Below, in pieces: positions 1,093 through 6,856 of a stretch of DNA of 7,015 nt. Every line of letters begins with the position of its first letter. The stretch's first letter is position 1. A model generated the notes under the pieces. It was not told where the DNA came from and searched no databases. It saw only the letters and a program-made list of their open reading frames with translations. Both the position numbers and the translations under genes were made by a program. The stretch lies in the NCBI GenBank assembly GCA_964507075.1, contig CAZDOL010000014.1, positions 5,094 to 12,108 on the forward strand, in the 5' to 3' direction. This stretch comes from an uncultured Gammaproteobacteria bacterium. Its GTDB lineage: Bacteria; Patescibacteriota; Patescibacteriia; UBA2591; UBA6264.

Positions 1093-1135
1093 ATTGGGTA
1101 ATTGGGTACCTAGGTGCTCGGGTAATCAGGTAATT
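1093..1135. repeat. G-rich repeat arm, copy 1 (attgggta x2 followed by gggtacctaggtgctcgggtaatcaggtaatt)
   Basis: Positions 1104-1135 are 30/32 identical to 2133-2164. Positions 1096-1122 are 22/27 complementary (ungapped) to 1513-1539. The arm lies between the ORF2 stop (1090) and the ORF3 ATG (1143). Confidence 0.85.
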
Positions 1136-1142
1136 AAAAATT

Positions 1143-2129
1143 ATGTCAACAGGTTTAGATAATTTAGAAATATATAAATTAGCTGAGAAGCTGGAAGTTT
1201 TTATTTATAAACTGAGTAAAAAATTTCCAGATGACGAAAAATATCGCACAGTTGACCAACTAAACAGATCATCTTCTGCTGTTTCTAACAACATTGCTGA
1301 AGGATATGGTAGATATTCTTTTCAAGATAAAATAAATAAATTTTATATTGCTCGAGGCGAAGCTGAAGAAACGCGGAAAGGTATAAACAAAAGCCATAAG
1401 AAAGGTTTTGTTTCTGTAAAAGAAGCTGATTTGTGTGATAAAAATTATACACAATTGATAAAACAGATTAATGCTTATATTAATTTTTTACGTCGTCAGC
1501 AAAATCCCAATCCCCAAGTACCCAAGTACCCAAGTACCCACAATAAGGGTTTCACCCTTATTGAACTTATGGTTTCTTTGGGTATTTTGGTTGTGGTTAT
1601 TCTTTCGGCTATGGGTATTTATTTGCGGGTAATTGGAACCAGAGAGCAATCTTTGGGAGACCTTAATATTCAAGAAGAAGGGCAATATATTATGGGTTTG
1701 ATAGTTAAGGATATTCGGGCTGGGCAGATTGATTATAGTTCTTATGTGGGGGATTTGGATGAGCCCGAAGATGATCTTATGCTTCTGGATTCTTCTAGCG
1801 ATGAGATTAGATACAAGAGTGATTTGGCTGGTAGTGGAAGTTGTACTCAAAATAGGTGTGTTTTAAAAAAATGCAAAGGACTGATTGTTGATGATTATTG
1901 TGACGATGATAATAATTATGAAGACATTACTATGACTGACATTAGTATTGAACGATTGGATTTTTATATCAACCCAACAAGCAATCCTTTCACAGCCGGT
2001 TCGGAAAGCTATAATCATCCCCATGTCACTATTATTTTAGAGCTTAAATCTTTAGTAGCAAAAAGTGCCACTACAGCTGAAGTCGTTCTTCAGCAAACGG
2101 TTTCCCAAAGATACACAAAAAGAAAATAA
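1143..2129 (+). CDS. In-frame fusion: four-helix-bundle protein (23S rRNA intervening-sequence protein / Avd-like family) + PilW/GspJ-like prepilin
   Basis: aa 1-~120 carry hallmarks of the four-helix-bundle family and its normal full length (LEIYKLAEKL..., SSSAVSNNIAEGYGRYSFQDKINKFYIARGEAEE, ...QINAYINFLRR). No stop follows. aa 121-135 (NPNPQVPKYPSTHNK) are encoded by a nucleotide repeat. Then comes G136|F137TLIELMVSLGILVVVILSAMGI, a textbook prepilin cleavage/methylation motif with E at +5, followed by QEEGQYIMGLIVKDIRAGQ (PilW/GspJ-like). No in-frame ATG/GTG/TTG exists between 1488 and 1551. Confidence 0.75.
   Translation: MSTGLDNLEIYKLAEKLEVFIYKLSKKFPDDEKYRTVDQLNRSSSAVSNNIAEGYGRYSFQDKINKFYIARGEAEETRKGINKSHKKGFVSVKEADLCDKNYTQLIKQINAYINFLRRQQNPNPQVPKYPSTHNKGFTLIELMVSLGILVVVILSAMGIYLRVIGTREQSLGDLNIQEEGQYIMGLIVKDIRAGQIDYSSYVGDLDEPEDDLMLLDSSSDEIRYKSDLAGSGSCTQNRCVLKKCKGLIVDDYCDDDNNYEDITMTDISIERLDFYINPTSNPFTAGSESYNHPHVTIILELKSLVAKSATTAEVVLQQTVSQRYTKRK
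1502..1540. repeat. C-rich repeat arm, copy 1 (aaatcccaatcccc + cccaagta x3.5)
   Basis: Its first 23 nt (aaatcccaatccccaagtaccca) are identical to 2236-2258. An 8-nt unit cccaagta is tandemly repeated at 1513-1520, 1521-1528 and 1529-1536, with a partial copy at 1537-1540. It is the approximate reverse complement of the G-rich arm. It is translated as NPNPQVPKYPST inside ORF3. Confidence 0.85.
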
Positions 2130-2132
2130 GTC

Positions 2133-2164
2133 GGGTACTTAGGTACTCGGGTAATCAGGTAATT
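2133..2164. repeat. G-rich repeat arm, copy 2
   Basis: gggtacttaggtactcgggtaatcaggtaatt is 30/32 identical to 1104-1135. It starts 4 nt after the ORF3 stop. Confidence 0.85.
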
Positions 2165-2205
2165 AGTTATTTATTAGAATAATTAGAATAATTTTACTAT
2201 GTCAT

Positions 2206-2967
2206 ATGTTATTAGATATATTTTTAAAAAAATTTAAATCCCAATCCCCAAGTACCCAATCCCCAAGCAACCAGTCTATCTCTTTAATTATCACAGTTCT
2301 TATTATTTCTTCTATTTTGGTTAGCACTATTACTGTTGGAGATGTTATGATTAGACATAGTCAAACAGTGAAAAGCTCTGAGGTTTCAGAAATTGCTTAT
2401 TTTGCTGCGGAAAGCGCTTTAGAAAAAGCGAGTTATGGAATTTTAAAGAATTACGATAATGTTTCTTCTTATACTTTAAGTGGCAGTATGACCAACACCG
2501 CGAAATACGAGGTTACTGATGTTAGTTTAGACAACAGGACTCCTTTAATTCCTTTTGAAGTGACCTTAGGAGCAGGCGAATCTTTTGAATTAGCATTAGA
2601 TTTTAATGGCACAAATATTTATCCACTAATTTTAAACATTGACCAAACAGCTTCTGTTTCAACAGATTTAATCATTTATGAATGTCTGACCATTGCTGTG
2701 CCTCCGCCTCCTCGTGTTTGCGATTCAGGATATACTCAGACATTTGTTTCTTCCTTGCCTTATAATTTAAGCATTTCAGAAGAGACAAAATATTATAAAA
2801 TTCGCATCAATAACTTGGATGCATCTGATTCAGAAACATATACCTTAACCCCAAGCGCGGACAATATTCCCGTAGGAGTTGACATCACTGCAAAAGGGGT
2901 TTATGGGGGATATGAAAGGCAAGCTAAGAGCAGTTTTCCCAAATGGCAGACTTTTGGAACTGACTAA
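2206..2967 (+). CDS. PilX/GspK-like pilus assembly protein (N-terminal TM helix, no Glu5)
   Basis: MLLDIFLKKFKSQSPSTQSPSNQS-ISLIITVLIISSILVSTITVG is a basic leader plus one hydrophobic helix lacking E at +5, as in GspK/PilX. The later SEIAYFAAESALEKASYGI resembles the conserved A-x-x-AE-x-G/A helix of PilX N-terminal domains. It is fourth in an H-I-J-K-like gene order. Stop is TAA at 2965-2967. The ATG lies inside the AT-rich spacer of a repeat pair. Confidence 0.7.
   Translation: MLLDIFLKKFKSQSPSTQSPSNQSISLIITVLIISSILVSTITVGDVMIRHSQTVKSSEVSEIAYFAAESALEKASYGILKNYDNVSSYTLSGSMTNTAKYEVTDVSLDNRTPLIPFEVTLGAGESFELALDFNGTNIYPLILNIDQTASVSTDLIIYECLTIAVPPPPRVCDSGYTQTFVSSLPYNLSISEETKYYKIRINNLDASDSETYTLTPSADNIPVGVDITAKGVYGGYERQAKSSFPKWQTFGTD
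2236..2268. repeat. C-rich repeat arm, copy 2
   Basis: aaatcccaatccccaagtacccaatccccaagc shares a 23-nt identical core with 1502-1524. aagtaccc (2250-2257) is the perfect complement of gggtactt (2133-2140). It is translated in ORF4 as KSQSPSTQSPS, a different reading frame from copy 1. Confidence 0.85.
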
Positions 2968-2996: not shown

Positions 2997-3005
2997 TGAT
3001 ATAAT
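2997..3005 (+). promoter_or_regulatory. Extended -10 promoter-like box (TGaTATAAT) upstream of the small ORF
   Basis: ctgatataat matches TGnTATAAT exactly and lies 34 nt upstream of ATG 3039. There is no good -35. In an AT-rich genome such boxes also occur by chance. Confidence 0.3.
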
Positions 3006-3038
3006 AATGTTATTATATAAACATAATAGAGAAATAAT

Positions 3039-3338
3039 ATGTCTTTGCCTGGATTTTTACAATCATGTTTTTGGGATGTGGATTTTGATAAGCTGAACCC
3101 CCAAGAATATCCTTATTTTGTCATAGAAAGAATTTTAGAATATGGAAATAAAAAAGACATAGGTTGGTTGGCTAAGAATTTCCCTAAAAACACAGTTAAA
3201 GAGACAATTATTAGTTCTCGTTTTCTTAGCCCCAAAAGCACTAATTTTTGGGCTTTGGTTCTTAATTTAGATAGAGATAAGGTTTTATGTTTGAAAAAGT
3301 CATCAACGAAAAAACAAAACAAAATTTGGTCACATTAA
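3039..3338 (+). CDS. Small conserved hypothetical protein (99 aa)
   Basis: A clean ORF with its own upstream TGnTATAAT box and a downstream hairpin. The N-terminal FWDVDFDKLNPQEYPYFVIERILEYGNKKDIGWL...SRFLSPKSTNFWALVL looks to me like a widespread small protein family of unknown function. I recall it being catalogued as a DUF (possibly DUF6922) but cannot verify that here. The antisense ORF 3113..3322 is its shadow. Confidence 0.6.
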   Translation: MSLPGFLQSCFWDVDFDKLNPQEYPYFVIERILEYGNKKDIGWLAKNFPKNTVKETIISSRFLSPKSTNFWALVLNLDRDKVLCLKKSSTKKQNKIWSH

Positions 3339-3346
3339 CTAATCAG

Positions 3347-3378
3347 TGAAGTGTTGAAGTCAGACTTCAACAACTTTA
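3347..3378 (+). terminator. Stem-loop 9 nt downstream of the small ORF (possible terminator or processing site)
   Basis: gttgaagtc-a-gacttcaac (3353-3371) is a perfect palindrome. It is extendable, with one bulge, to 3347-3378 (~14 pairs). Only a short T tract (ttt) lies at its 3' side, so it is not a classical intrinsic terminator. Confidence 0.3.
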
Positions 3379-3396
3379 CGCAAATTACTTAGTTTT

Positions 3397-3451
3397 GGGC
3401 GATTTTTTGCCAAATCGGAAAATTGCCCTTAAAACCCACACGAGCAAGGGC
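3397..3451 (+). promoter_or_regulatory. Two mutually exclusive hairpins in the leader of the fibre gene
   Basis: Hairpin A pairs gggcgatttt (3397-3406) with aaaattgccc (3419-3428): 9 Watson-Crick pairs plus 1 G-T, with a 12-nt loop. Hairpin B pairs gccctt (3425-3430) with aagggc (3446-3451). A and B share 3425-3428, so they cannot form together. Confidence 0.3.
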
Positions 3452-3477
3452 TTTCAGAGCGTCACTTTTGGGGGACA

Positions 3478-3507
3478 GTCCCCTTTAATAAAGTCCCCTT
3501 TAATAAA
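3478..3507. repeat. 15-nt perfect tandem duplication (gtcccctttaataaa x2)
   Basis: Direct reading shows 3478-3492 identical to 3493-3507, ending 7 nt before the ATG at 3515. It is preceded by the palindrome ggggac-a-gtcccc (3471-3483). Confidence 0.9.
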
Positions 3508-3514
3508 AAGATTT

Positions 3515-6013
3515 ATGAATAACTCGCAAAATATAAAATCTTTGTTTTCTGAATTTAGTCGAGTTTGTTTTAAGTCAAAGTTTAACTTTTGGCTTTTTTT
3601 CTTTATTTTCCTTTTTTTATGTTCCAATGTTCCAATGTTCCAATGTTCTAATGTTTTAGCTTGGACTCCGCCACAAAGTCCTCCGCCTCAAGATAATGTT
3701 CCTCAGCCTTTGAACACAGGACCAACCGCGCAAGGCAAAACAGGCAGTTTGGGTATTGGCACAGATACTCCAACAGTAAAATTAGATGTTTTGGGGATTA
3801 TAGAATCTACTGGAGCTATTACCAGCGGAGGACGAATTACTGGTACTGAATTTTATGATTATCTAGGCGGTTATCTTGACCCTGGTTCTAGTGGTATATC
3901 TCTCTATGTTCTAGGTTCAATTACTGCCACTGGAACAACTGATGATAATTATTTTTTGGGTAACTTGGGAATTGGGACCACAGTTCCAGACACACTTTTA
4001 ACAATAGCCAATGATAATTGGATATCAGCAAAAGATAATGCTGGTACAAGCTATGTAAATATGTTTAAAGTTAATGCTTCTGATGAAATAGATGTAGGAG
4101 GAACTTTAAATGTTGGACCCATAGATTTAGCAGAAGATTCAGGAGCAATTACTCTTGTTAATCTGCCTGTGAGCTCAACTCCAAGTGATGGAGATATTGA
4201 AAGTTATGGTTTTAGCATTGATTCAAATCCCGTTTTAACAATTTATGGATTAGCAGATGGAATAGGAGGTGCTGACACGCATAGAATAGGTATTGGAACA
4301 ACGTCTCCGCAACACAAATTAGATGTTCGCGGTGAGGTTGCTGTTGGCGTGGCTGGCGCGACAAATCAAATTCATTTTGTTGCCGATCCTACTGCCGACA
4401 CAGACGTGGCAACAAAGGGATATGTTGATGGCGCGGGATATTGGGGAGTAACTGGCTCTTATCTTTATCCAACTAATCTTAATTATTTGGTTGGCATAGG
4501 CATTGCTACCCCGAGCGCTAAATTAGAAATTGATGGTGGTGTTCGCGCTTCAGAAGATATTATGACTGATACAGAATTAAAAGTTGGGGCGAATACATGG
4601 ATTGGCACTTTAAGTGCTCAGATTGTAGGGAATTTAGGATTGATAGATTCGGGTGATTTAACTGTAGCGGGTGAGGGTTTTTTTGATGGCGAAGGGGACA
4701 GTTATTTTTTGGGTAATTTGGGAATTGGGATTAGCGCGCCAACAAAGGGCAAATTAGAGGTAGATGGCAATATTGCTATTGGCGGTTCTAATAATGAATT
4801 AAGATTTTATGAAGGAGTAAATTATGTAGGTTTTGAGGCGCCCGCTTTAACAGCTGATAAAATATGGGTTTTACCAAGCATAGATGGCTCAAGTGGACAG
4901 GTAATAAAAACCGATGGCGCTGGAAATTTAAGTTGGATTAGCCATAATGGCTTAGATGGATTGGACGGCGGGACCACTAATGAATATTATCATCTTGATA
5001 ACACCGATTATACTGCTTTAAGTGACGCCAATGCTCAATTAGGAGATTTACAAACAGACGGTTCTCCAAGTTTTAATGGTTTAACAATTGGTACATTATC
5101 TGGGGTTTTAAAAGCAACAACGGGTGTTGTGTCTGGTAGTGCCACGATGGATGATATTGATGACGGGACAACTTATGTCAGAAGCCATAACGACTTCACA
5201 GATATTTATAAAGGATATTTAAACCAGGGAGTAAGAGATATTGATGACCCGATTTTTGCGGGGTTAACTGTTGATACTGATACTATTTATGTTGATAGTA
5301 CAAATCATTTCGTCGGTATCGGAACGACGGAGCCAGGGTATGAATTAGATGTTCAGGGGACGATTTATACTACAGGCTTTTATTTAAATGATGGTAATGC
5401 CACCGCAGGCAAAGTTTTGGTGTCCGCTAATACATCAGGGCTTGCCTATTGGCAAGCCCTTGGTACAATCTCTGGCATCACATGTGATGAGGCTGGCAGT
5501 TGTAGTTCAAATTATATTCCCAAATTTATTACTTCAAGCACTGTCAATGATAGTATAATTTACGAATCTGGTGGGCAAATTGGCATCGGGACTGTGATTC
5601 CACAAGCAAAATTACATGTTGACGGAAGCATTAAATCTACCAGTTTAGAAACAGGCGGACTTAAAGTAACAGATAGCCCAGGTCTTAATAAAGTTTTAAC
5701 TGATTTAGATGGAGCAGGCACAGCAGTTTGGACAGATGTTTCAGGTGGCGCTGATAACGATTGGGTAATAGTAGGCACAGATTATATATATAATTACGAT
5801 TCATTAAATAGAAGCGTTGGAATTGGGACAACGAATCCGGGAACTGCTAAACTGGCTGTTATGAACGGCAACGTCGGTATTGGCACGACAACTCCAAACG
5901 CAAAACTACAGGTGAAAGCTGCCGTTGCAGAGGCAATTGTTGAATTTACAGATGATGACGGCACTGATGTAATGCAAATTGATGCCAACGGCAATGTTAT
6001 AATTTCGTTATAG
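3515..6013 (+). CDS. Large secreted tail-fibre-like repeat protein (putative surface fibre/adhesin)
   Basis: The ORF is open from TTG 3395. ATG 3515 gives MNNSQNIKSLFSEFSRVCFKSKFNFWLFFFIFLFL...VLA|W, a signal-peptide-like N-terminus, then a Pro-rich linker (TPPQSPPPQDNVPQP). Nine copies of the motif (L/V)GIG(T/I)xxPxxKLxVxG follow, at ORF-track aa 119, 191, 297, 365, 441, 639, 728, 807 and 826. Three copies of G-x-V-(L/I)-x-x-D/N-x-x-G-x-x-x-W are also present (SGQVIKTDGAGNLSW, AGKVLVSANTSGLAYW, NKVLTDLDGAGTAVW). This composition is typical of phage tail-fibre-like and bacterial fibre proteins. Stop is TAG at 6011-6013. Confidence 0.85.
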   Translation: MNNSQNIKSLFSEFSRVCFKSKFNFWLFFFIFLFLCSNVPMFQCSNVLAWTPPQSPPPQDNVPQPLNTGPTAQGKTGSLGIGTDTPTVKLDVLGIIESTGAITSGGRITGTEFYDYLGGYLDPGSSGISLYVLGSITATGTTDDNYFLGNLGIGTTVPDTLLTIANDNWISAKDNAGTSYVNMFKVNASDEIDVGGTLNVGPIDLAEDSGAITLVNLPVSSTPSDGDIESYGFSIDSNPVLTIYGLADGIGGADTHRIGIGTTSPQHKLDVRGEVAVGVAGATNQIHFVADPTADTDVATKGYVDGAGYWGVTGSYLYPTNLNYLVGIGIATPSAKLEIDGGVRASEDIMTDTELKVGANTWIGTLSAQIVGNLGLIDSGDLTVAGEGFFDGEGDSYFLGNLGIGISAPTKGKLEVDGNIAIGGSNNELRFYEGVNYVGFEAPALTADKIWVLPSIDGSSGQVIKTDGAGNLSWISHNGLDGLDGGTTNEYYHLDNTDYTALSDANAQLGDLQTDGSPSFNGLTIGTLSGVLKATTGVVSGSATMDDIDDGTTYVRSHNDFTDIYKGYLNQGVRDIDDPIFAGLTVDTDTIYVDSTNHFVGIGTTEPGYELDVQGTIYTTGFYLNDGNATAGKVLVSANTSGLAYWQALGTISGITCDEAGSCSSNYIPKFITSSTVNDSIIYESGGQIGIGTVIPQAKLHVDGSIKSTSLETGGLKVTDSPGLNKVLTDLDGAGTAVWTDVSGGADNDWVIVGTDYIYNYDSLNRSVGIGTTNPGTAKLAVMNGNVGIGTTTPNAKLQVKAAVAEAIVEFTDDDGTDVMQIDANGNVIISL
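3619..3658. repeat. 8-nt tandem array (atgttcca x3, then atgttcta, atgtttta) inside the signal-peptide coding region of the fibre gene
   Basis: Units lie at 3619, 3627, 3635, 3643 and 3651. They encode CSNVPMFQCSNVL. The unit length is not a multiple of 3, and each unit carries an ATG, so ATGs fall in all three frames. Confidence 0.9.
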
Positions 6014-6032
6014 AAAAATAAAAAAACTGAAG

Positions 6033-6089
6033 TTGACCTCTAACGTTAACCCTAGAGGTTAACTAATCTAAGAGGTTAACTAATCTAAG
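6033..6089. repeat. REP-like hairpin element upstream of the RAYT gene plus 17-nt tandem duplication
   Basis: ttgacctctaacgttaaccctagaggttaac (6033-6063) forms a stem of acctcta (6036-6042) with tagaggt (6053-6059), plus a G-T pair 6035/6060 and a 10-nt loop. gaggttaactaatctaa is repeated at 6056-6072 and 6073-6089. The 18-nt core ttgacctctaacgttaac recurs at 6807-6824. Confidence 0.85.
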
Positions 6090-6107
6090 ATAAATTAGTG
6101 AGTTAGT

Positions 6108-6830
6108 ATGCGAAAAGAACAAATTTTAATAGATGATTTAGTTCATGTCTACAATCGCGGTAGTCGTAAAATGCCTATTGTTTATGATGAGGCTGATAAA
6201 TGGAGGTTTTTAAAAAGTTTATATTATCTCAATGACGAATATGCTCCTGCGAATATTTTTCAACATTTAAAATCGAATATACAACTTGGGAAATATCGCA
6301 ATTTTGAGAGACCAAAAGACTGGCCAGCTTCACGACCATTGGTTAAAATTTTGTCTTATTGTTTAATACCTAATCATTTCCATCTACTTTTAAGGAAAAT
6401 TACAGAAAATGGAATTAGTAAATTTATGGCAAGATTTAGCAATAGTTTTACAAAATATATTAATATTAAGCACGATATGTCTGGTAGATTGTTTCAATGT
6501 TCTTATCAGTCAAAGTTGGTAAAAACCGAAAAAATGTTATGGTACACAGATGCGTATATTCAAGTTTTTAACCCATTTGAACTTTATCCTGGCGGTTTGG
6601 AAAAAGCGACAAAAGAATTTGATAAAGCTTTTAAATTTGCTTTAGAATATCCGTTTTGTAGCTTAGGTGAAAGTTTTGGCAAAAGAAATTTGCATATTAT
6701 TGACAGAGATGTTTTGGGCAAGGTATGGTCTAATATAGCAGAGTATAAAGAATTTGCGCAAGAAGTTATAATATATTACAGTAATAGTAATAGAAAAGTT
6801 TGCAAATTGACCTCTAACGTTAACGTCTAA
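6108..6830 (+). CDS. HUH / Y1 single-strand DNA transposase-like protein (RAYT, REP-associated tyrosine transposase / IS200-like TnpA)
   Basis: It carries HVYNRG near the N-terminus and an HUH motif in YCLIPNHFHLLL (H90-F-H92, nt 6375-6383). It also has GRLFQCSYQSKLV and a catalytic-Tyr motif AYIQVFNP (Y150, nt 6555-6557). These are the conserved blocks of the COG1943/Y1_Tnp family. The stop (TAA 6828-6830) and the last ~8 codons (KLTSNVNV) lie inside the right flanking repeat. Confidence 0.85.
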   Translation: MRKEQILIDDLVHVYNRGSRKMPIVYDEADKWRFLKSLYYLNDEYAPANIFQHLKSNIQLGKYRNFERPKDWPASRPLVKILSYCLIPNHFHLLLRKITENGISKFMARFSNSFTKYINIKHDMSGRLFQCSYQSKLVKTEKMLWYTDAYIQVFNPFELYPGGLEKATKEFDKAFKFALEYPFCSLGESFGKRNLHIIDRDVLGKVWSNIAEYKEFAQEVIIYYSNSNRKVCKLTSNVNV

Positions 6831-6850
6831 GGTTAACCCTAGAGGTTAAC
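6807..6850. repeat. REP-like hairpin element at the 3' end of the RAYT gene
   Basis: ttgacctctaacgttaac-gtctaaggttaac-cctagaggttaac is the same element as 6033-6063 with a 13-nt internal insertion, in the same orientation. It contains the 10-bp palindrome acgttaacgt (6817-6826) and the 8-bp palindrome ggttaacc (6831-6838). The outer stem is 6809-6816 with 6840-6847. Confidence 0.85.
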
Positions 6851-6856
6851 TTCAAA

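What the first reader, a model, noticed from the sequence alone, without database searches (positions are those of the whole stretch)
1093..2268. The same G-rich/C-rich inverted arm pair occurs twice: once enclosing the four-helix-bundle ORF, once 'empty'
Seen directly: G-rich arm copies 1104-1135 and 2133-2164 are 30/32 identical. C-rich arm copies 1502-1524 and 2236-2258 share 23 identical nt. In pair 1 the arms (1096-1122 vs 1513-1539) are 22/27 complementary and enclose the four-helix-bundle ORF (1143-~1500). In pair 2 the arms enclose only a 71-nt AT-rich spacer (2165-2235), which contains the ATG (2206) of the PilX-like gene. Their complementarity is weaker: a perfect 8-bp core (2133-2140 with 2250-2257), then patchy. 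The C-rich arm is translated in two different frames (NPNPQVP in ORF3, KSQSPST in ORF4), so conservation is at the nucleotide level, not the protein level. Both pairs start within 5 nt of the preceding gene's stop and supply the start codon and leader of the next pilin gene. Established knowledge: rRNA intervening sequences carrying this ORF family are bounded by complementary arms that form an RNase III-cleaved stem. Inference: this is an IVS-like cassette family living in mRNA/intergenic context, seen here in loaded and empty (MITE-like or excised) states. Alternatively the arms are RNA processing sites that segment the pilin polycistron.
Basis: partly seen in the sequence, partly recalled or inferred. 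Interest (0 to 1): 0.8.

Follow-up and report, generated by a model that had tools for sequence, protein, structure and literature searches.

The report
IVS-type four-helix-bundle cassette in pilin leaders
A small promoterless hairpin cassette, of the kind known from ribosomal RNA genes and carrying a four-helix-bundle gene, sits in the leader region of two pilin genes of an uncultured Patescibacteria bacterium. One copy is intact and fused in frame to the pilin, the other has lost its gene, and the 8-base repeats in its arms set the pilin's reading frame.

Summary
Both arm pairs exist and each arm is a short tandem array of 8-nt units.

Pair 1 encloses a PF05635 four-helix-bundle (4HB) gene. 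That gene has no stop codon. It reads through the C-rich arm into a type IV prepilin with a KG|FTLIE cleavage site.

Pair 2 is an ORF-less copy. A close relative (L069) carries a full cassette at the same junction, fused to the PilX-like gene.

Homologous 4HB genes across Patescibacteria sit at junctions of co-oriented operon genes such as pheS|pheT and nusG|rplK. They are flanked by complementary periodic arms of different sequence. ORF-less hairpins with the same arms lie nearby. At least 15 protein clusters are 4HB-pilin fusions, and a series of decayed copies exists.

One near-identical strain (L169) differs by exactly one octamer, which uncouples the pilin from its only start codon.

The rRNA-IVS analogy holds for architecture. 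RNase III cleavage is untested, and mismatch statistics give no sign of RNA-level selection on the stem. The mobility mechanism is unknown.

This is a new variant of a known kind. Interest is about 0.7.

The parts
1093..1136 (+). G-rich 5' arm of cassette 1. It is a tandem array of 8-nt units (ATTGGGTA / GGGTACCT / AGGTGCTC / GGGTAATC / AGGTAATT) and starts 5 nt after the pilin2 stop at 1088-1090.
1143..1502 (+). Four-helix-bundle (PF05635 / TIGR02436) coding part of cassette 1. It has no stop codon of its own.
   Evidence: Pfam E = 2e-26 over aa 7-111. TIGR02436 E = 1.6e-25. Closest solved structure is 2GSC. dN/dS is 0.07-0.14 against the fused relatives.
1502..1541 (+). C-rich 3' arm of cassette 1 (AAATCCCAATC + CCCAAGTA x3.5). 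It is translated as the linker NPNPQVPKYPST. One 8-nt unit is missing in strain variant L169.
1143..2129 (+). The 328-aa 4HB-prepilin fusion ORF. The predicted prepilin-peptidase site is KG|FTLIELMV, with GGT at 1548-1550 and TTC at 1551-1553. The mature minor pilin ('pilin3') spans 1551-2126.
   Evidence: ORF. N_methyl domain at aa 133-156. The prepilin peptidase gene lies directly upstream of the pilin genes in L001, L003 and L005. At least 15 fusion clusters exist.
2131..2165 (+). G-rich 5' arm of cassette 2. It starts 3 nt after the pilin3 stop at 2127-2129 and matches the G arm of the loaded cassette at the same junction in L069 at 35 of 36 positions (read by eye).
2166..2235 (+). AT-rich filler of the ORF-less cassette 2. 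It holds a 9-nt tandem ATTAGAATA at 2173-2193. A remnant resembling the 4HB start lies at 2199-2235 (ATGTCA..GTTATTAGATATATTT, compared with ATGTCAACAGGTTTAGATAATTT in cassette 1). The start codon now used by the PilX-like gene is at 2206.
   Evidence: comparison with L065 and L069
2236..2274 (+). C-rich 3' arm of cassette 2. It is translated in another frame as KSQSPSTQSPSNQ, part of the leader of the PilX-like protein.
2206..2967 (+). PilX-like minor pilin ('pilin4'). Its leader MLLDIFLKKFKSQSPSTQSPSNQ|SISLII is built from filler plus C arm 2. The L069 ortholog is fused to a full 4HB (366 aa).
3612..3663 (+). Orphan array of a second arm family, (ATGTTCCA) x4.6, in the signal-peptide region of the 832-aa surface protein. 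Each unit carries an ATG. The same array type encodes pilin leaders (..CSNVPMFQCSN..) in L014, L015 and L179. In L179 it pairs with an upstream (GTAACATG)n array.

Best explanation
The two arm pairs are two copies of a promoterless hairpin cassette of the rRNA-IVS type. Its layout is a 5' array of 7-9-nt units, then an optional four-helix-bundle (S23p/Avd-like, PF05635) ORF in the loop, then a 3' array that is the reverse complement of the first. In Patescibacteria this cassette family occupies junctions between co-oriented genes of transcribed operons rather than rRNA helices.

In this type IV pilus operon the cassettes have landed in the one place where an N-terminal extension does little harm: the cleavable prepilin leader.

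- **Cassette 1 (1093-1541)** is intact. Its 4HB gene has lost its stop codon, and the pilin behind it has no start codon of its own. The only way to make pilin3 is therefore as a 4HB-linker-prepilin precursor. The adjacent prepilin peptidase would cut this at KG|F into a free cytoplasmic 4HB protein and a mature pilin. The cleavage step is inferred.
- **Cassette 2 (2131-2274)** is a copy that has lost the ORF. Its filler supplies a new ATG and its C arm encodes the leader of the PilX-like pilin.
- **Spread.** Copies move among pilin 5' ends, most likely by recombination or gene conversion that uses the arms as portable homology. This is inferred from three observations: the different occupied junctions in relatives, the near-identity of arms within a genome, and a lower synonymous divergence of the cassette than of its flanks.
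- **Frame switching.** The arm unit is 8 nt, not a multiple of 3, and the C arm is coding here. Gain or loss of one unit therefore couples or uncouples the pilin from its start codon. One such variant is observed. Whether the cell exploits this as phase variation is inferred.
- **RNA stem.** Whether the arms also form an RNase III-cleaved stem in the transcript, as in rRNA IVSs, is plausible by analogy but not shown.
For: **Identity and anatomy.**

**Family architecture outside rRNA.**
- 4HB genes lie at pheS|pheT (L007/L018, L011, L024, L026, L033, L038) and nusG|rplK (L009, L034).
- Others lie before rpsN (L023), before rpmG (L036) and in a PrgI-containing, possibly type IV secretion, locus (L012, L021, L028).
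- All are co-oriented with their neighbours and flanked by complementary periodic arms.
- None is in rRNA.
- Cognate arms pair better than non-cognate arms (mean -41.2 vs -32.8 kcal/mol, p = 5e-5) and better than the reversed-arm control in 25 of 26 loci.

**ORF-less hairpins.** They carry near-identical arms and lie beside loaded cassettes (L025: 33/34 and 19/20 identical).

**Independent lineage.** L178 has the same operon layout with heptamer arms (GGAATTT)n/(AAATTCC)n. It is loaded at pilin3 and empty at pilin1 and pilin4.

**Occupancy differs among relatives.** Pilin2 is occupied in L014 and L016, pilin3 in the window and L015, and pilin4 in L069.

**Decay series.** L014 3978-4715 keeps a 4HB 3' remnant. 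P0069 is an internal deletion. P0105 is another remnant. Many pilin3 orthologs have leaders encoded by an arm only.

**The fusion is real and expressed.**
- There is no alternative start codon.
- dN/dS is 0.07-0.14 for 4HB and 0.11 for the pilin parts.
- At least 15 fusion clusters have leaders of 134-218 aa ending in G, S or A before FTLIE or QSLIE.
- The peptidase gene is adjacent.

**Mobility.** Cassette dS is 0.37 between window@pilin3 and L069@pilin4, against 0.77-1.03 in the flanks.

**Frame switch.** L169 matches the window over 3,504 nt except for 1 SNP and the loss of exactly one 8-nt unit. This gives a 131-aa 4HB ending at a TAA and leaves the pilin without a start codon. Two Logan contigs end inside the arrays.

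**Precedent.** The Coxiella IVS has variable tandem heptamers in the arm upstream of S23p, and RNase III cuts at the first repeat (PMC4990558).
Against: - No RNA end data exist, so cleavage is untested.
- Arm mismatches show no excess of sense-strand G.U over A.C (26 vs 46 overall; 24 vs 28 without the pilin loci). A stem under RNA-level selection should show such an excess.
- Non-cognate arms also cross-pair well, so part of the 'covariation' is a shared octamer vocabulary.
- The pair 2 stem is weak. In a long transcript the four arms can pair in other combinations.
- RNase III cutting in the C arm would destroy the fusion mRNA. This conflicts with the evidence that the fusion is translated.
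- Only one copy-number variant was found among roughly 23 contigs, and none in L097 vs L016.
- The lower dS of the cassette could reflect sequence constraint rather than recent movement. It rests on 120 codons.
- No mobility enzyme is encoded in the cassette.
- A folded prepilin leader of about 135 aa has no precedent that I know of.
Confidence: 0.6

Rival explanations
1. The arms are primarily host-serving RNA elements. They would be intercistronic stems cut by RNase III, as in phage T7 early mRNA, or stems that sequester the start region. Either way they would segment or tune the polycistronic pilin mRNA, and the 4HB gene would be an incidental passenger.
For: - The hairpins sit exactly between the stop and start codons of co-oriented genes, and the downstream ATG lies in or just after the 3' arm.
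- The minimum-energy fold pairs the arms of cassette 1 (z = -5.5).
- There is no terminator-like or above-chance promoter signal.
- rRNA IVS stems are RNase III substrates (PMC4990558).
- The 5' arm often ends in an AGGA or TAGG Shine-Dalgarno-like motif before the 4HB ATG.
Against: - There is no G.U enrichment among mismatches.
- Cleavage in the C arm would separate the pilin from its only start codon, yet the fusion is conserved under purifying selection.
- Many orthologous pilins have plain short leaders with no arms, so the operon does not need them.
- The pair 2 stem is weak.
Confidence: 0.25
2. The arrays are first of all a phase-variation (contingency) device. Non-triplet tandem repeats at the 5' end of each minor pilin and surface-protein gene would switch them on and off by slipped-strand mispairing. 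The inverted arrangement and the 4HB gene would be secondary.
For: - Units are 8 nt or 7 nt.
- The L169 variant differs by exactly one unit in an otherwise 99.97% identical 3.5 kb, and this uncouples the pilin.
- Arrays also lie in the signal peptide of the 832-aa surface protein and in many pilin leaders.
- Contigs break inside the arrays.
Against: - The same periodic arms flank 4HB genes in non-coding junctions of housekeeping operons, where reading frame is irrelevant.
- The arrays are short (2-4 units), which gives low slippage rates.
- Only one variant was seen.
- ATGTTCCA-type arrays carry an ATG in every unit, which buffers frame changes rather than exploiting them.
- L009 has 9-nt units.
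Confidence: 0.2
3. There is no mobile element. The two pairs would result from local duplication or gene conversion between the 5' regions of neighbouring paralogous pilin genes.
For: - Both pairs lie in one operon about 1 kb apart.
- No further copy exists in the roughly 21 kb known for this organism.
- Arms are near-identical within a genome but differ between genomes, as concerted evolution would give.
Against: - The same arm-ORF-arm architecture occurs at unrelated junctions across Patescibacteria, such as pheS|pheT, ribosomal protein operons and the por operon.
- Homology between pairs 1 and 2 ends sharply at the arm borders.
- The upstream flanks are the 3' ends of unrelated pilins.
Confidence: 0.1
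4. The 4HB gene is the Avd accessory factor of a diversity-generating retroelement (DGR), supplied in trans to the reverse transcriptase gene about 9 kb downstream.
For: - PF05635 is homologous to Avd (PMC10053308). Some relatives also hit PF22296 bAvd.
- An RVT_1 gene and an FGE-sulfatase-domain gene lie downstream in L002.
Against: - No template/variable repeat pair was found near the RT. The only repeats there are 46-nt palindromic units.
- The homologous cassettes shown have no RT among their called neighbours.
- The 4HB is not adjacent to the RT.
Confidence: 0.05

Closest known systems
23S/16S rRNA intervening sequences (IVS) carrying the S23p / '23S rRNA-intervening sequence protein' ORF (Leptospira, Coxiella burnetii; also reported in CPR rRNA genes)
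   Same: - A PF05635 four-helix-bundle ORF lies in the loop of a long stem made by inverted arms.
- The arms contain short tandem repeats of variable number (GACAGAT heptamers in Coxiella).
- The element has no promoter of its own and rides on a highly expressed host transcript.
- ORF-bearing and ORF-less versions coexist.
(PMC4990558; PMC11270868.)
   Different: - The host site is an mRNA operon junction or prepilin leader, not an rRNA helix (Rfam 0 hits).
- The ORF is under strong purifying selection and is translated as a fusion, whereas Coxiella S23p is decaying and probably untranslated.
- RNase III excision is not shown, and it would be incompatible with the fusion.
Simple-sequence contingency loci (slipped-strand phase variation of surface and pilus genes, e.g. 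Neisseria and Haemophilus; from my own knowledge)
   Same: Non-triplet tandem repeats lie in the 5' coding region of pilus and surface genes. A one-unit length polymorphism between near-identical strains switches the reading frame.
   Different: Units are 8 nt and the arrays have only 2-4 units. Each array is one arm of an inverted pair belonging to a cassette. Reversible high-frequency switching is not shown.
Class III (type IV prepilin) signal peptides cleaved by prepilin peptidase (PilD)
   Same: A canonical (K/N)G|FTLIE(L/M) site with an N_methyl domain, and a peptidase gene in the operon.
   Different: The leader is 134-154 aa and contains a folded 4HB domain, instead of the usual roughly 5-30 residues (from my own knowledge).
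MITE and REP/BIME-type intergenic palindromic repeats, and integron attC cassettes
   Same: - Small ORF-less palindromic copies lie in operon junctions.
- Structure is conserved while sequence is variable.
- The cassettes are promoterless and co-oriented with the host operon.
   Different: - No target-site duplication was noticed by eye; there was no systematic search.
- No conserved terminal sequence.
- No transposase or integrase in or next to the cassette.
- The arms are tandem arrays.
- The nearby RAYT gene (6108-6830) has its own, different palindromes.
Avd of diversity-generating retroelements
   Same: A homologous pentamer-forming four-helix-bundle fold (PMC10053308; 2GSC hit).
   Different: No TR/VR pair was found, and the 4HB gene is not adjacent to the RT gene about 9 kb downstream. 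The genomic context is operon junctions.

Membership tests
PF05635 / TIGR02436 four-helix-bundle (S23p, IVS protein) family | Sequence match above the curated cut-off | tested here: met
   Pfam 92.7 bits against a cut-off of 33.8, covering the whole model (2-106 of 106). TIGR02436 89.4 bits against 24. 2GSC E = 4e-10.
rRNA intervening sequence (IVS) | Inserted in a helix of a 16S or 23S rRNA gene | tested here: not met
   No rRNA or any other Rfam family in the window or in 19 homologous loci. The flanks are protein-coding genes.
rRNA intervening sequence (IVS) | Inverted arms that form a long stem enclosing the ORF or a short loop | tested here: met
   28 nt at 82% complementarity, and the minimum-energy fold pairs the arms (z = -5.5). 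Across 26 loci cognate arms beat non-cognate arms (p = 5e-5).
rRNA intervening sequence (IVS) | Excision from the transcript by RNase III without re-ligation | not testable with these tools
   This needs RNA-end mapping or an in-vitro cleavage assay. Indirect evidence is not favourable: there is no G.U excess, and the fusion ORF spans the C arm.
Type IV prepilin | N-terminal methylation/cleavage motif G|FxxxE followed by a hydrophobic helix | tested here: met
   PF07963 E = 2e-7 at aa 133-156. TIGR02532 23.8 bits against a cut-off of 16.3. The sequence reads KG|FTLIELMVSLGILVVVIL.
Type IV prepilin | Short (about 5-30 aa) basic leader | tested here: not met
   The leader is 135 aa and contains the 4HB domain. 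Orthologs show both short leaders and leaders of 134-218 aa.
Phase-variable simple-sequence contingency locus | Tandem repeat with a unit not divisible by 3, inside the ORF or its 5' end | tested here: met
   CCCAAGTA x3.5 at 1513-1540 inside ORF 1143-2129.
Phase-variable simple-sequence contingency locus | Unit-number polymorphism among otherwise identical genomes that changes the frame | tested here: met
   L169 has one unit fewer plus 1 SNP over 3,504 nt. The ORF splits into a 131-aa 4HB and a pilin with no start codon. This is a single variant, 1 of about 23 contigs.
Phase-variable simple-sequence contingency locus | Reversible, high-frequency switching within a clonal population | not testable with these tools
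   This needs read-level or culture data. Two contig ends inside the arrays are only suggestive.
MITE / transposon-derived element | Conserved terminal inverted repeats plus target-site duplication | tested here: not met
   Arm sequences differ between loci. No duplication was seen at the arm borders of the window or L023, judged by eye and not searched systematically.
DGR (Avd accessory gene) | Adjacent RT with a template/variable repeat pair | tested here: not met
   The RT gene is about 9 kb away. No TR/VR-like repeat exists in L002 9800-12129.

The most novel reading that the evidence does not exclude
IVSs are not an rRNA peculiarity. They would be one face of a general class of promoterless 'transcript-hitchhiker' hairpin cassettes encoding an Avd-like four-helix-bundle protein, which colonise junctions of highly expressed operons throughout Patescibacteria.

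In type IV pilus operons these cassettes have become in-frame, peptidase-removable pro-domains of prepilins. The non-triplet repeats in their arms would act as a slipped-strand switch that turns individual minor pilins on or off. That could let an episymbiont vary its pilus composition, and perhaps its host attachment.
Probability: 0.35. Interest if true: 0.85.

Novelty: new variant of a known kind. Interest (0 to 1): 0.72.

Why it matters
- **Origin of IVSs.** The function and mobility of rRNA IVSs and of the S23p/4HB family have been unexplained since about 1990. Finding the same arm-ORF-arm unit at mRNA operon junctions, under purifying selection, gives many natural 'insertions' for studying what the protein and the arms do.
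- **Odd pilin leaders.** It accounts for the long, low-complexity leaders of many Patescibacteria pilins and for the many 'four helix bundle protein' genes scattered through their operons.
- **A new kind of prepilin.** A prepilin whose leader is a folded 135-aa domain would widen what prepilin peptidases are thought to accept.
- **Possible phase variation in CPR bacteria.** If the octamer arrays act as switches, this may be a first phase-variation mechanism for CPR bacteria (I found no report of one), in the organelle they are thought to use for host contact and DNA uptake.

Tried and rejected
- **Chance or low complexity.** Rejected by shuffles.
- **Pair 2 as a clean deletion of pair 1.** A global alignment of 1080-1600 with 2110-2330 shows homology only in the arms. 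Only a short remnant of the 4HB start is arguable.
- **Further copies in this organism.** None in about 21 kb (L001, L002).
- **Metagenome scan with the C-arm 17-mer.** It returned 118+ hits, nearly all chance. Only L065, L069, L095/L104, L097 and L156 were relevant.
- **Rfam.** Nothing in the window or in 19 loci.
- **Viral contigs.** No relative of the 4HB.
- **Terminator or promoter role.** No terminator-like site, and promoter-like sites at chance level.
- **Cognate vs non-cognate arm pairing.** The first version was blurred because different loci share octamer motifs. It was resolved by a permutation test and a reversed-arm control.
- **G.U vs A.C test for an RNA-level stem.** The result was negative.
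- **DGR link.** No TR/VR pair.
- **Second unit-number variant.** None in L097 vs L016 or in contigs anchored on DUF6922.
- **Literature.** No paper in the library describes 4HB/IVS cassettes outside rRNA.


Full report
**1. The observation**

The window is a type IV pilus minor-pilin operon of an uncultured Patescibacteria (CPR) bacterium. The closest database proteins are annotated 'Patescibacteria group bacterium'.

The gene order is as follows:
- a prepilin peptidase gene, just upstream of the window, seen in L001, L003 and L005;
- pilin1 at 37-555;
- pilin2 at 530-1090;
- ORF 1143-2129;
- a PilX-like gene at 2206-2967;
- a DUF6922 gene;
- an 832-aa repeat protein;
- a RAYT-like Y1 transposase gene.

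All sequence statements in the finding are correct:
- The G-rich arm copies 1104-1136 and 2133-2165 differ at 2 of 33 positions.
- The C-rich arm copies 1502-1525 and 2236-2259 are identical over 24 nt.
- Neither arm is ever matched twice in 200 shuffles.
- Arms 1095-1122 and 1513-1540 are 82% complementary and pair in the minimum-energy fold (z = -5.5).
- Pair 2 has only the 8-bp core and a few more pairs (z = -1.6).
- The two C arms are read in different frames.
- Homology between the two pairs stops at the arm borders.

Three facts were missed.
- First, every arm is a tandem array with an 8-nt period.
- Second, the four-helix-bundle ORF (PF05635, E = 2e-26) has no stop codon. It runs through the C arm into a prepilin with a canonical KG|FTLIELMV site, giving a 328-aa fusion.
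- There is no in-frame ATG, GTG or TTG between the 4HB domain and the cleavage site.
- Third, the four arms can pair in other combinations. C arm 1 and G arm 2 are 90% complementary over 21 nt. A fold of 1080-2290 prefers G1:C2 plus C1:G2.

**2. What the comparative data show**

*(a) The architecture is general.*
- Homologs of the 4HB part are stand-alone proteins of 120-139 aa in Patescibacteria.
- In about 25 loci they lie between co-oriented genes of operons.
- Six are at pheS|pheT, and two at nusG|rplK.
- Others lie before rpsN and rpmG, in a PrgI-containing locus, or in a 2-oxoacid oxidoreductase operon.
- None is in rRNA.
- Almost all have a C-poor tandem array of 7-9-nt units directly after the upstream stop. 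The reverse-complementary G-poor array follows directly after the 4HB stop. The next gene's ATG lies in or just behind that 3' arm.
- Arm sequences differ between loci, for example GGGTACTT, TAGTTAAT, TTAGGGCT, GGAATTT and TTTTGGTT. Cognate arms nevertheless match in detail.
- Cognate duplex energy averages -41.2 kcal/mol, against -32.8 kcal/mol for permuted partners (p = 5e-5). Cognate pairing beats a reversed-arm control in 25 of 26 loci.
- Non-cognate arms also cross-pair to some degree because octamer motifs are shared.

*(b) ORF-less copies are common.*
- Hairpins made of the same kind of arms, with loops of only 9-50 nt, sit at other junctions in L019, L027, L028, L033, L036 and L038.
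- In L020 two such hairpins flank the 4HB gene.
- In L025 an empty hairpin lies one gene upstream of a loaded cassette. Their arms are 19/20 and 33/34 identical.

*(c) The pilin operon of relatives carries the cassette at different pilin genes.*
- L014 (4HB 84% identical) and L016 have it fused in frame to the pilin2 ortholog.
- L015 and the window have it fused to pilin3.
- L069, the closest relative recovered, has it fused to the PilX-like gene. That is exactly the junction that is 'empty' in the window, and its G arm is 35/36 identical to window 2131-2165.
- A more distant relative, L065, has only the C arm at that junction.

*(d) A decay series exists.*
- L014 pilin3 keeps a G arm, the last ~20 codons of the 4HB gene and a long C arm.
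- P0069 is an internal deletion (4HB helix 1 joined to the C arm), and P0105 is another remnant.
- Many pilin3 orthologs have leaders that are simply translated arm arrays, such as MLKNKCIQAPKHPSTQS| and ..KCSNVPMFQCSNDKG|.
- Others have ordinary short leaders, such as MKQG| and MIKKYSKKS|.
- In the window, 2199-2235 resembles the 4HB start.

*(e) Fusion is recurrent.*
- At least 15 protein clusters are 4HB-pilin fusions with leaders of 134-218 aa.
- One comes from an independent lineage, L178 (44% identity), in the same operon.
- Its arms are heptamers, (GGAATTT)n/(AAATTCC)n.
- Its pilin1 and pilin4 carry ORF-less modules with the same arms.

*(f) Both halves of the fusion are under purifying selection.* dN/dS is 0.07-0.14 for the 4HB and 0.11 for the pilin parts.

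*(g) The cassette looks younger than its flanks.* dS is 0.37 between window@pilin3 and L069@pilin4, against 0.77-1.03 for the flanking genes.

*(h) A natural frame variant exists.*
- L169, from another sample, matches the window over 3,504 nt except for one SNP and the loss of exactly one 8-nt unit of C arm 1.
- The 4HB ORF then ends at a TAA (131 aa) just before GGT TTC, and the pilin loses its only start codon.
- This state is seen on 1 contig. The fused state is on 10 to 22 contigs.
- Two Logan contigs end inside the arrays, at 1511 and at 3646/3648.

**3. How it most likely works**

*Shown:*
- The element is a cassette of arm, optional 4HB ORF and arm.
- It has no promoter or terminator signal of its own.
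- It is always co-oriented with the host operon.
- In this clade it sits in prepilin leader positions.
- The fusion is the only route to pilin3.
- The unit number of the C arm decides the reading frame.

*Inferred:*
- The 328-aa precursor is cut at G|F by the adjacent prepilin peptidase. This would release a cytoplasmic 4HB protein and a normal pilin. It would explain why insertions are tolerated and even fixed here.
- Copies spread among pilin 5' ends by recombination that uses the arms as homology. This explains the near-identity of arms within a genome, the different occupied sites in relatives, and the lower dS.
- ORF-less copies arise by deletion.
- Unit slippage may act as an on/off switch.

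*Open:* whether the arms form an RNase III substrate in the mRNA, as in rRNA IVSs.
- In the Coxiella IVS, RNase III cuts at the first of several tandem heptamers upstream of S23p (PMC4990558).
- The anatomy fits that precedent.
- Against it, arm mismatches show no excess of G.U over A.C (26 vs 46; 24 vs 28 without the pilin loci).
- Also against it, cleavage in the C arm would destroy the fusion mRNA.
- I therefore rank RNA processing as a rival rather than part of the core claim.

**4. Comparison with known systems**

The closest known system is the ORF-bearing rRNA IVS.
- Shared features: the same protein family, an ORF in the loop of a long stem, tandem short repeats in the arm, ORF-less relatives, and no promoter.
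- It fails the defining criterion of insertion in rRNA, and cleavage is untested. It therefore works like an IVS in architecture but is not one by definition.

Three further comparisons:
- It resembles contingency loci in the frame-switching repeat. One polymorphism was observed, and reversibility is untested.
- It is not a MITE, a REP element, an integron cassette or a DGR module by their defining features (see the membership table).
- Searches of the paper library found no description of 4HB/IVS cassettes outside rRNA, nor of 4HB-pilin fusions.

**5. Verdict**

The 'excised/MITE' and RNase III parts are not.

This is a new variant of a known kind. Two features are unexpected: a folded four-helix-bundle domain serving as a cleavable prepilin leader, and octamer arrays that set the pilin reading frame.

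Interest is 0.72. The main uncertainties are the mobility mechanism, the RNA-level role of the arms, and whether unit slippage is used biologically.

Noticed in passing
window 6027-6090, 6108-6830, 6801-6851: A RAYT-like IS200/Y1 transposase gene (PF01797; NF047646 REP-associated tyrosine transposase, below its cut-off) is bracketed by its own palindromic repeats, GTTGACCTCTAACGTTAACCCTAGAGGTTAAC. These are unrelated to the cassette arms. A second Y1_Tnp gene lies at L001 97-699.
   Followed up: partly
window 3612-3663: An (ATGTTCCA) x4.6 octamer array lies in the signal-peptide region of the 832-aa protein. Every unit carries an ATG, so a start codon exists in all three frames. Gene callers disagree between 792 and 832 aa. 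Two Logan contigs end inside the array.
   Followed up: partly
window 3515-6013; L069 1661-10321: The large protein with repeated 'VGIGTTxP' motifs has no Pfam or NCBIfam hit. It is 832 aa here but 2,886 aa in the close relative L069, a more than threefold length difference by repeat-module gain or loss.
   Followed up: no
window 3339-3515: A non-coding stretch of about 175 nt holds a perfect hairpin (GTGTTGAAGTCAGACTTCAACAAC, about 3350-3373) and a 15-nt tandem repeat (AGTCCCCTTTAATAA x2.1 at 3477-3507). No Rfam family matches.
   Followed up: no
L002 6876-12129: Downstream of the window lie a 940-aa LamG-domain protein, an FGE-sulfatase-domain protein, a probable GIY-YIG protein (motif read by eye) and an RVT_1 reverse transcriptase on the opposite strand. 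Three copies of a 46-nt perfect palindrome (CCCCGTGAGATAGCGAGCTCTGCGAGCTCTATCTCACGGGG) sit at 10834-11263. No TR/VR pair was found, so a DGR is not confirmed.
   Followed up: partly
L156 versus L014 2226-4322: A 1.4-kb metagenome contig joins the full 4HB cassette directly to pilin3 and skips pilin2. The join lies across the ~115-nt repeat shared by the two cassette copies. This is either recombination between cassette copies that deletes a pilin gene, or an assembly collapse.
   Followed up: no
L025 1624-3423: One 2-oxoacid:ferredoxin oxidoreductase-like operon (flanking genes named by eye) carries two different 4HB genes (1624-2019 and 3001-3372) plus an empty hairpin (2617-2686) at three successive gene junctions.
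   Followed up: partly
L007/L018, L011, L024, L026, L033, L038: The pheS|pheT junction holds a 4HB cassette in six different Patescibacteria genomes (including CPR2 and Falkowbacteria MAGs), each with different arm sequences. This is either an ancient vertically inherited insertion or a preferred target site.
   Followed up: partly
L179 940-1130, 2360-2440, 3120-3200: A REP-like element with the core CTTGTCATTGCGAGG...GCAATCT is inserted between the arms of ORF-less hairpins at several pilin junctions in this relative.
   Followed up: no
L015 1706-2212 and 3943-4140: L015 has an extra 168-aa ORF between pilin1 and pilin2. It also has a long purine-rich / pyrimidine-rich hairpin (GGAAAATGGAAAATAG... 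/ ...TTTCCAATCTCC) after the fused pilin3, followed by about 1 kb of small opposite-strand ORFs before the PilX-like gene.
   Followed up: no
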